Origin: Schizosaccharomyces osmophilus
Lineage: Eukaryota
Length of the DNA stretch: 64,000 nucleotides
NCBI RefSeq assembly: GCF_027921745.1
Contig: NC_079239.1
Location: 3,224,001-3,288,000, forward strand
Direction of reading: 5' to 3'
Of the stretch, positions 17,514-18,190 are shown in pieces. Position numbers and translations under genes: made by a program. The notes under the pieces are model-generated. The model ran no database searches and was not told the DNA's origin. It was given only the letters and a program-made list of their open reading frames with translations. Position 1 is the first letter of the stretch. Each line of letters opens with the position of its first letter.

Positions 17514-18190
17514 CTAGCTTCTTGTAGCTTTCTTGGTTTCACAAACAATAGTCACCACAGCTTCCTTGATGCCTTTTTTGCTAGAAAGAAAGGCAGACCA
17601 AATGCCACGCAGAGAGCAATGAACGCCTGTCTCTATGCCACTCGCGATGTTTCCCATAACTTCCTTGAAAATCTTGGTCCATGCTTCATAAGTCACTGTG
17701 GAATTAGTGAATGCATACAAACATCAAGTTGCAATCTTTCTTACCATATAGGATCCAGGAAAGAGATGCACAGTATACAAAGAAAAATCCAGCTAGGTAA
17801 GTGGAAGGATCCATGAACCGTGCCATGATCATGCAGGGCAGAGTCAATAGGAGAAATGCCGCAATACAAATTGGCAGTTTGATGTAGCAAGGAGAGGGAG
17901 GGTTTGCTGGAACATTCTCTTCATCATATTCTTGTGTTTCATGGGAAGTTTTCAATGTCTCTAAATAGAATTAGAATTCGTCTGCAATGCTTTCAAAAAC
18001 AACAGCATTTCCAATTCCGAAAAAAACCTTTTTATTAAGGAAGCGCATTTTTCTTACCTGAATAGGGAGGAGGTGGTATTTTTTCTTCAGAGACACTGGG
18101 TTCGAGGTATTCACCTATGTTGTTTTCATTGTCATCGAATGAATGCCAATTGTCAGGATGCTTTTGTAAACTTGTATATTTGTTTCTCAT
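17514..18190 (-). CDS. wtf: wtf-like (meiotic drive poison/antidote family) membrane protein, 176 aa as spliced; exons 18190-18058, 17960-17745, 17695-17514; possibly truncated or a pseudogene
   Basis: Exon 1 reads MRNKYTSLQKHPDNWHSFDDNENNIGEYLEPSVSEEKIPPPPYS, resembling the Wtf N-terminus MKNNYTSL and ending in a PY motif. Introns GTAAGA...TTCTAAT...TAG (97 nt) and GTAAGA...CACTAAT...CAG (49 nt) keep the frame. Two hydrophobic segments (LPICIAAFLLLTLPCMIMA; YLAGFFFVYCASLSWILYV). Family assignment is by recognition, not a search. Confidence 0.68.

What the first reader, a model, noticed from the sequence alone, without database searches (positions are those of the whole stretch)
17514..18190. 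Cryptic three-exon wtf-like meiotic-drive gene between hgh1 and pyp1
Seen: fragments that the ORF track leaves unconnected splice through two canonical introns into a 176-aa protein. It has a hydrophilic exon 1 (MRNKYTSL...EEKIPPPPYS), a phase-1 intron right after the PY motif, and then two transmembrane segments. Established: wtf genes of fission yeasts are spore-killing poison-antidote drivers; exon 1 is antidote-specific and carries PY motifs that recruit Rsp5/Nedd4-family (Pub) ubiquitin ligases to send the poison to the vacuole. Inference: this is a lineage-specific selfish-element family member inserted in an otherwise conserved housekeeping block. It is the most unusual element in the window.
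Basis: partly seen in the sequence, partly recalled or inferred. Interest (0 to 1): 0.88.

Follow-up and report, generated by a model that had tools for sequence, protein, structure and literature searches.

The report
Shortened, tamed wtf spore-killer relative
A three-exon fission-yeast gene related to the wtf spore-killer genes keeps the antidote's sorting tag, has no poison start and is intact in two species, so it is likely a tamed, non-killing family member, not an active driver or a dead pseudogene.

Summary
The splice model is right: 176 aa, identical to the annotated S. osmophilus hypothetical protein SOMG_03966, so it is not cryptic. The only relative found is the syntenic S. cryophilus SPOG_00980 (44% identity). 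De Carvalho 2022 catalogued that gene as wtf3, a 'pseudogene' with no S. osmophilus counterpart. Descent from wtf is well supported: the ortholog's top Pfam hit is WTF (E=6e-4, below cut-off), both introns sit at wtf positions and phases, a PPxY ends exon 1, exon 3 opens with a match to the conserved wtf segment, and an 11-residue periodicity follows. It is not built as a driver: no poison start, two membrane helices instead of 4-8, three exons, no 5S rDNA. Both orthologs keep an open, equally short frame, which neutral decay rarely allows (2 of 3000 simulations). Best reading: a domesticated, antidote-shaped wtf overlooked in the S. osmophilus catalogue, in several features closer to S. pombe wtfs than to its own genome's. 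Function and splicing are untested.

The parts
18058..18190 (-). Exon 1 (133 nt): antidote-type cytosolic tail
   Evidence: S. pombe wtf mean exon 1 is 139 nt, S. osmophilus wtf 111 nt
18062..18073 (-). PPxY motif (aa 40-43), predicted WW-domain ligand for Pub1/Pub3
   Evidence: kept as PPQY in the ortholog, which also has an LPxY at aa 28-31
17961..18057 (-). Intron 1 (97 nt, phase 1). No FLEX core; its in-frame ATG is closed by a stop at the branch site
   Evidence: wtf intron 1 averages 176-200 nt
17745..17960 (-). Exon 2 (216 nt): linker, TM1 and most of TM2
17821..17877 (-). Predicted TM1 (about aa 73-91)
   Evidence: hydropathy peak 2.40; helix 72-92 in a low-confidence model
17691..17796 (-). 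Predicted TM2 (about aa 100-118), interrupted by intron 2
   Evidence: hydropathy peak 1.72; helix 99-117
17696..17744 (-). Intron 2 (49 nt, phase 1, five residues before W122)
   Evidence: 49 nt in the ortholog and mean 49 nt in S. pombe wtf
17514..17695 (-). Exon 3 (182 nt with stop)
17667..17693 (-). Nine codons opening exon 3 (aa 118-126), matching the conserved exon-3 segment of S. pombe Wtf proteins in register
   Evidence: comparison by eye
17529..17687 (-). Predicted amphipathic helix with 11-residue periodicity (aa 120-172); likely a degenerate form of the wtf 33-bp exon-3 repeat
18742..18752 (-). FLEX-like forkhead site, 552 nt upstream of the ATG
18687..18697 (-). FLEX-like forkhead site, 497 nt upstream of the ATG (a third 7-nt core lies at 18709-18715)
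15639..16789 (+). Flanking gene hgh1 (SOMG_03965), convergent
20383..22041 (+). Flanking gene pyp1 (SOMG_03967), divergent

Best explanation
The gene encodes a 176-aa protein descended from the wtf family that has an antidote-type PY tail and no poison start, and it likely persists as a domesticated, non-driving gene whose product is predicted to be a two-pass membrane protein tagged by Pub1/Pub3 ligases and sorted to the vacuole. Shown by sequence: gene structure, PPxY, two hydrophobic segments, an amphipathic 11-residue-period C-terminal segment, loss of everything homologous to the later wtf exons, and an open frame in two species at one locus. Inferred: the cytosolic tail binds WW domains of Pub1/Pub3, its lysines (K4, K10, K37, K48, K72) are ubiquitinated, and ESCRT sorting takes it from the trans-Golgi to the endosome and vacuole, as shown for true antidotes (PMC10721834). 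Also inferred: forkhead (Mei4-type) sites 0.5 kb upstream give meiotic or sporulation expression. The most likely job is that of a PY-motif adaptor that brings a partner membrane protein to the ligase in meiotic cells or spores. It would parallel the stable, non-driving class 3 wtf genes of S. pombe.
For: Identity with SOMG_03966. 1:1 syntenic ortholog SPOG_00980 whose coordinates equal those of published S. cryophilus wtf3. The ortholog's best Pfam hit of 24,736 models is WTF, E=6.3e-4, aa 1-149. Both intron positions and phases are shared by the orthologs. Intron 1 matches wtf (115-nt exon 1 of osmo wtf42). Intron 2 precedes a 9-codon segment with Y, E, W, T and K in register with the segment present in 32 of 32 S. 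pombe rows seen. Lag-11 self-similarity: ortholog 0 of 5000 shuffles at any lag, this protein 47 of 5000 at lag 11; hydrophobic moment peaks at 97-98 degrees, 0 of 2000 shuffles in both. Neutral simulation to 44% identity left both frames open in 2 of 3000 runs. No poison start and no intron FLEX, no 5S rDNA, no paralog found. The ortholog's gene model has a 359-nt 5' UTR, which suggests transcript support.
Against: P0001 itself has no Pfam hit at E<=10, nor do its three exons hit WTF; the ortholog's 20 bits are under the 25-bit cut-off. No Wtf protein was recovered by four sequence searches. 44% identity is far below the 85.2% mean for orthologs of these species, so constraint is weak or selection is diversifying; dN/dS could not be computed. 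The two stop codons are three codons apart, not the same codon. No ortholog is annotated in S. octosporus. In this protein the lag-11 signal is not significant if any lag is allowed (1119 of 5000). Relative to the nearby Trp, intron 2 of osmo wtf42 lies three codons further upstream (hand count). No expression, localisation or phenotype data; the structure model is poor (pLDDT 50).
Confidence: 0.55

Rival explanations
1. An antidote-only suppressor of drive: it co-assembles with Wtf poisons through TM1-2 and the exon-3 segment and drags them to the vacuole through its PY tail.
For: Antidote anatomy without a poison start. It keeps the exon-3 segment that Wtf4 poison needs for self-assembly. 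The genome carries many predicted drivers. Fast evolution fits conflict.
Against: Rescue normally needs a closely matched poison; even repeat-number changes break it. No resident Wtf was similar enough to be found at E<=10. Truncated Wtf4 antidotes mostly fail to rescue.
Confidence: 0.2
2. A decaying pseudogene, as De Carvalho 2022 labelled the ortholog: a truncated wtf copy whose frame has stayed open by luck or under very weak constraint.
For: Published label 'PSEUDOGENE' for wtf3; low identity; different stop codons; no annotated S. octosporus ortholog.
Against: Start codon, four splice sites, PY motif, both TM segments and the amphipathic period are kept at 44% identity. Both frames open in 2 of 3000 neutral simulations. 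No hydrophobic remnant of later TMs in about 500 nt past the stop (highest 19-residue score 1.07), so the shortening looks old.
Confidence: 0.13
3. An active spore-killing driver, with a short poison made from an internal start.
For: wtf ancestry; the ortholog has a Met just before TM1 (M71), and M94 is shared.
Against: M71 is Ile here; four out-of-frame ATGs precede M88; the intron ATG is closed by a stop. Functional Wtf proteins have 4-8 TMs. Single stable locus, no 5S rDNA.
Confidence: 0.05
4. Not a wtf at all: an unrelated PY-motif membrane protein that resembles Wtf by composition.
For: No Pfam hit for P0001; sub-threshold hit for the ortholog; no Wtf in sequence searches.
Against: Start motif, exon-1 length, two intron positions, the exon-3 segment and the 11-residue period all agree with wtf, and specialists filed the ortholog as wtf3.
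Confidence: 0.05

Closest known systems
S. cryophilus wtf3 = SPOG_00980 (De Carvalho 2022, PMC9562144)
   Same: Same locus between pyp1 and hgh1, same three exons and intron phases, 44% identity, same length class (179 vs 176 aa).
   Different: Catalogued as a pseudogene with no syntenic wtf in S. osmophilus. It has two PY motifs; this protein has one. Its stop lies three codons later.
S. pombe Wtf antidotes and class 2 suppressors (Pfam WTF, PF03303)
   Same: Exon 1 of about 135 nt ending just after a PY motif at a phase-1 intron; two TMs in exon 2; phase-1 intron 2 of 49 nt; conserved 9-codon start of exon 3; 11-residue periodicity after it.
   Different: Three exons instead of 5-6, two TMs instead of 4-8, short intron 1, repeat degenerate, no close paralog, stable ortholog in another species.
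S. pombe class 3 wtf genes (wtf7, wtf11, wtf14, wtf15)
   Same: Highly diverged, single-locus wtf relatives with clear orthology and no shown drive.
   Different: Class 3 proteins lack the conserved PY1/PY2 motifs and have two potential start sites; this gene keeps a PY motif and has no second start. Sequence similarity to class 3 proteins was not tested (they are not in the alignment seen).
5-exon wtf drivers of S. osmophilus, S. octosporus and S. cryophilus
   Same: Similar start motif, a PY motif at the end of exon 1, phase-1 introns 1 and 2.
   Different: Their exon 1 is 109-114 nt and intron 1 180-200 nt, they have a poison ATG near the start of exon 2, and 79% of S. osmophilus wtfs lie by 5S rDNA; none of this holds here.

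Membership tests
wtf family (by descent) | Sequence match to Wtf proteins (Pfam PF03303 at its cut-off) | tested here: inconclusive
   P0001 no hit; ortholog 20 bits vs cut-off 25, E=6.3e-4, best hit; ortholog published as wtf3
wtf family (by descent) | Exon 1 encodes a cytosolic tail with a PY motif and ends in a phase-1 intron right after it | tested here: met
   compared with osmo wtf42 and mean exon sizes
wtf family (by descent) | Phase-1 intron 2 followed by the conserved 29-bp start of exon 3 (S. pombe type) | tested here: met
   five of nine residues in register, Trp fifth in both; by-eye comparison
wtf family (by descent) | 33-bp (11-aa) repeat early in exon 3 (present in most S. pombe wtfs) | tested here: inconclusive
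   strong lag-11 signal in the ortholog (0 of 5000), weak here (47 of 5000 at lag 11; 1119 of 5000 at any lag); amphipathic period 97-98 degrees in both
intact wtf drivers and suppressors (classes 1 and 2) | Five or six exons | tested here: not met
   three exons in both orthologs
intact wtf drivers and suppressors (classes 1 and 2) | Four to eight predicted TM segments | tested here: not met
   two by hydropathy
wtf drivers (class 1) | In-frame poison start in intron 1 or at the start of exon 2 | tested here: not met
wtf drivers (class 1) | FLEX motif in intron 1 | tested here: not met
   weak test, since 0 of 31 intact S. osmophilus wtfs have a confident hit
wtf drivers of the octosporus clade | Adjacent 5S rDNA (usual, not universal) | tested here: not met
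   no 5S in the 64-kb window; wag genes and LTRs were not searched with references
wtf drivers (class 1) | Kills spores that do not inherit it | not testable with these tools
   needs crosses
wtf suppressors (class 2) | Neutralises a closely similar poison | not testable with these tools
   no similar Wtf found; rescue assay needed
class 3-like non-driving wtf | Diverged, single locus with stable orthology | tested here: met
   orthogroup 1:0:0:1:0; one relative among 1.84 billion representatives
class 3-like non-driving wtf | No drive at its own locus | not testable with these tools
   needs a heterozygous deletion cross

The most novel reading that the evidence does not exclude
This is a surviving copy of the S. 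pombe-type wtf lineage inside the octosporus clade, cut down to exons 1-3 and kept by the host for tens of millions of years as a general anti-driver or membrane quality-control adaptor: a spore-killer gene turned into a host gene that sends Wtf poisons or other membrane proteins to the vacuole in meiosis. It would be the first cross-species conserved domesticated wtf and would show that the family's ancestor already had two lineages.
Probability: 0.3. Interest if true: 0.7.

Novelty: new variant of a known kind. Interest (0 to 1): 0.45.

Why it matters
It corrects two entries of the published wtf catalogue: S. osmophilus has a wtf-derived gene that was missed, and S. cryophilus wtf3 is probably neither a pseudogene nor species-specific. 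That paper found no class 3-like wtf outside S. pombe. What becomes of old meiotic drivers is an open question; a single-copy, two-species, minimal Wtf (PY tail, two TMs, amphipathic helix) is a clean test case for domestication, and its stable orthology allows a dN/dS test that gene conversion spoils for other wtfs.

Tried and rejected
No whole genome is held for the window, so paralogs could be sought only through protein databases and the window (one copy). Read evidence for splicing was not obtained. Word-seeded searches found only the protein itself (1 of 10 candidates; 1 of 31) or the pair (2 of 1401); phmmer on 1.84 billion representatives found 2. Pfam on separate exons gave only a weak DUF7872 match, E=0.22, rejected; TctB on the ortholog, E=0.03, rejected as a hydrophobic-segment match. 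AlphaFold2 with two sequences: pLDDT 50, pTM 0.24; Foldseek on PDB: 0 matches; ESM Atlas for the ortholog: no feature hit, all structure TM-scores under 0.5. Metagenome scans for orthologs (325 pattern matches, none confirmed) and for an S. pombe wtf motif (0) gave nothing, so no Wtf sequences could be brought in for a profile or tree; those comparisons are by eye on a published alignment (67 of 113 rows seen, rows cut short). No tRNA, no Rfam family near the gene, only low-complexity repeats. Extra exons past the stop: one donor at 17408 and no hydrophobic frame, rejected. Full-text searches for the two gene ids found 0 papers; searches listed no paper on this gene. Earlier scan findings: none.

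Full report
Observation. On the minus strand, exons 18190-18058, 17960-17745 and 17695-17514 join through two introns (97 and 49 nt, each GTAAGA donor, CTAAT branch, AG acceptor) into a 176-aa frame. A search with exon 2 alone returned one protein among 10 candidates, P0001, named SOMG_03966 of Schizosaccharomyces osmophilus; its sequence equals the spliced product. The genome paper's gene table (PMC10085805; passages and supplement search hits seen, supplement cut when stored) lists it as an unnamed hypothetical protein between hgh1 and pyp1, while wtf genes in the same table are named.

Relatives. phmmer against 1.84 billion cluster representatives found two proteins: P0001 and P0002 (E=5.7e-34, 44%). 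P0002 is S. cryophilus SPOG_00980, the only other member of orthogroup OG-4879 (1:0:0:1:0). Identity by exon is 21 of 45, 28 of 71 and 28 of 59, far below the 85.2% mean for orthologs of the two species. In the supplements of De Carvalho 2022 (PMC9562144; abstract, sections 5, 6 part 1, 7, 8, 9, 27, 32, passages and parts of seven supplement files seen), S. cryophilus wtf3 lies between pyp1 and hgh1, with 'None found' for a syntenic S. osmophilus wtf. Its three exons have exactly the coordinates of SPOG_00980, and it is labelled PSEUDOGENE, defined there as a premature stop. So the ortholog is a catalogued wtf, and the S. osmophilus gene was missed.

Independent evidence of wtf descent. (a) Pfam: P0001 hits none of 24,736 models, but P0002's best hit is WTF PF03303, E=6.3e-4, 20 bits against a cut-off of 25, aa 1-149 on model positions 1-174. 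(b) Intron 1 is phase 1 right after the PY motif in both orthologs, as in osmo wtf42 (115-nt exon 1). Exon 1 is 133 and 136 nt, near the S. pombe mean of 139 and unlike 109-114 in the octosporus clade; intron 2 is 49 nt, as in S. pombe. (c) In S. kambucha wtf4, exon 3 opens in phase 1 with a conserved 29-bp segment needed for assembly and toxicity, followed by 66 bp of repeat (PMC11892871, passages). Laid by hand on the published alignment (67 of 113 rows seen), that segment carries a [YF]ETWT motif in 32 of 32 S. pombe rows, with Trp as the fifth whole codon. Here the fifth whole codon of exon 3 is also Trp, with Y, E, T and K in register. Against this, intron 2 of osmo wtf42 is three codons further upstream of the Trp (hand count). 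(d) Most S. pombe wtfs have a 33-bp repeat early in exon 3 (PMC6526906, passages). Exon 3 of the ortholog is self-similar at lag 11 (0 of 5000 shuffles reach it at any lag from 2 to 24); this protein is weaker (47 of 5000 at lag 11, 1119 of 5000 at any lag), and lag 33 is the highest of 23 DNA lags tested. The hydrophobic moment of aa 120-172 peaks at 97-98 degrees in both, 0 of 2000 shuffles. (e) The ortholog has two PY motifs at aa 28-31 and 41-44, like PY1 and PY2 of S. pombe Cw9a at 30-33 and 41-44, whereas octosporus-clade antidotes have one (PMC10721834, passages and section 12). I put descent from wtf at about 0.93. Several features point to the S. pombe type; no tree could be built.

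Not a driver by anatomy. Drivers have an in-frame poison start in intron 1 or early exon 2. Here the in-frame intron ATG meets a stop at the branch site, four out-of-frame ATGs follow in exon 2, and the next in-frame Met is M88 inside TM1. There is no FLEX core in intron 1, a weak test in this species. There are two TM segments against 4-8 in functional Wtf proteins, three exons against 5-6, and no 5S rDNA in the window, whereas 33 of 42 S. osmophilus wtfs lie next to one. I therefore do not file it as a driver or as a class 2 suppressor, only as wtf-derived.

Not likely a pseudogene. Both orthologs keep the start, four splice sites, the PY motif, both TMs and the amphipathic period. When two copies were mutated neutrally to 44% identity, both frames stayed open in 2 of 3000 runs (substitutions only, start protected, this gene used as stand-in ancestor, and the gene was picked because it is open). 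Nothing hydrophobic follows the stop in any frame. The ortholog's model has a 359-nt 5' UTR, which suggests transcript support. Against: the stops are three codons apart (this gene's TAG aligns with the ortholog's Q177), identity is low, and S. octosporus has no annotated ortholog, though its hgh1-pyp1 gap is about as long (my estimate).

Mechanism. From established work: antidote PY motifs bind Pub1/Pub3, ubiquitination sends the protein from the trans-Golgi to the endosome, and ESCRT delivers it to the vacuole. By inference this protein follows that route. Two 11-nt forkhead sites, one base off the FLEX consensus, lie 497 and 552 nt upstream; the window holds five such sites, 0.08 expected per kb. 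This is a post hoc observation and the region is shared with the divergent pyp1, so meiotic expression is only likely. My best reading (0.55) is a domesticated, non-driving wtf acting as a PY-motif membrane adaptor, comparable to S. pombe class 3 genes, which have stable orthologs and show no drive (PMC7032740, passages). Rivals: antidote-only suppressor 0.2, decaying pseudogene 0.13, active driver 0.05, unrelated protein 0.05.

Novelty. Full-text searches for both gene ids found no paper; searches on wtf with the species names, class 3 genes and domestication listed none on this gene. The 2026 orthogroup preprint (10.64898/2026.01.24.701316, passages only) does not mention the ortholog in its text, but its supplements are closed and may list further orthologs or a wtf label. 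The family and the ortholog's wtf label are known. New are the S. osmophilus member, the cross-species conservation of the short form, and its S. pombe-like features. New variant of a known kind; interest 0.45.

Noticed in passing
window 17514-18190 (syntenic interval in S. pombe): S. pombe SPAC26F1.11, listed as 'dubious', is numbered between pyp1 (.10c) and hgh1 (.12c); by the naming convention (recalled) it is on the strand opposite both, like SOMG_03966. One paper lists it as Pho7-dependently induced in phosphate starvation (PMC10910108, one passage). Homology untested; it could be a relic of the same gene.
   Followed up: partly
window 16790-20382 (syntenic interval in S. octosporus): No gene is annotated between hgh1 and pyp1 in S. 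octosporus, yet the gap is about 3.5 kb as here, and the hgh1 mRNA model has a long 3' end covering the expected site in antisense. An unannotated or decayed ortholog is predicted.
   Followed up: no
syntenic interval in S. cryophilus (cry_chrII 274365-285212): About 11 kb separate wtf3 from hgh1 there (725 nt here); it holds a species-specific ORF, SPOG_00981, whose transcript model overlaps hgh1 in antisense. Possibly an insertion.
   Followed up: no
window 17412-17513 (-): The frame stays open for 33 codons past the stop, and the first two match the ortholog's last two residues, so this stop may be younger than the ortholog's. A GTATGT donor at 17408 with a weak branch site could be a small 3' UTR intron.
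   Followed up: partly
window 18800-19000 (+): Three CRE-like TGACG/TGACA sites and a TATA-like box upstream of pyp1, consistent with a stress-responsive promoter and a long 5' UTR (seen; motif identity recalled).
   Followed up: no
window 7174-7254 (+) and 11487-11569 (-): C/D-box snoRNAs snoR38 and snR56.
   Followed up: no
window 2909-2919 (+): The window's only perfect 11-nt FLEX site lies just upstream of the calmodulin-like ORF at 2259-2885 (-).
   Followed up: no
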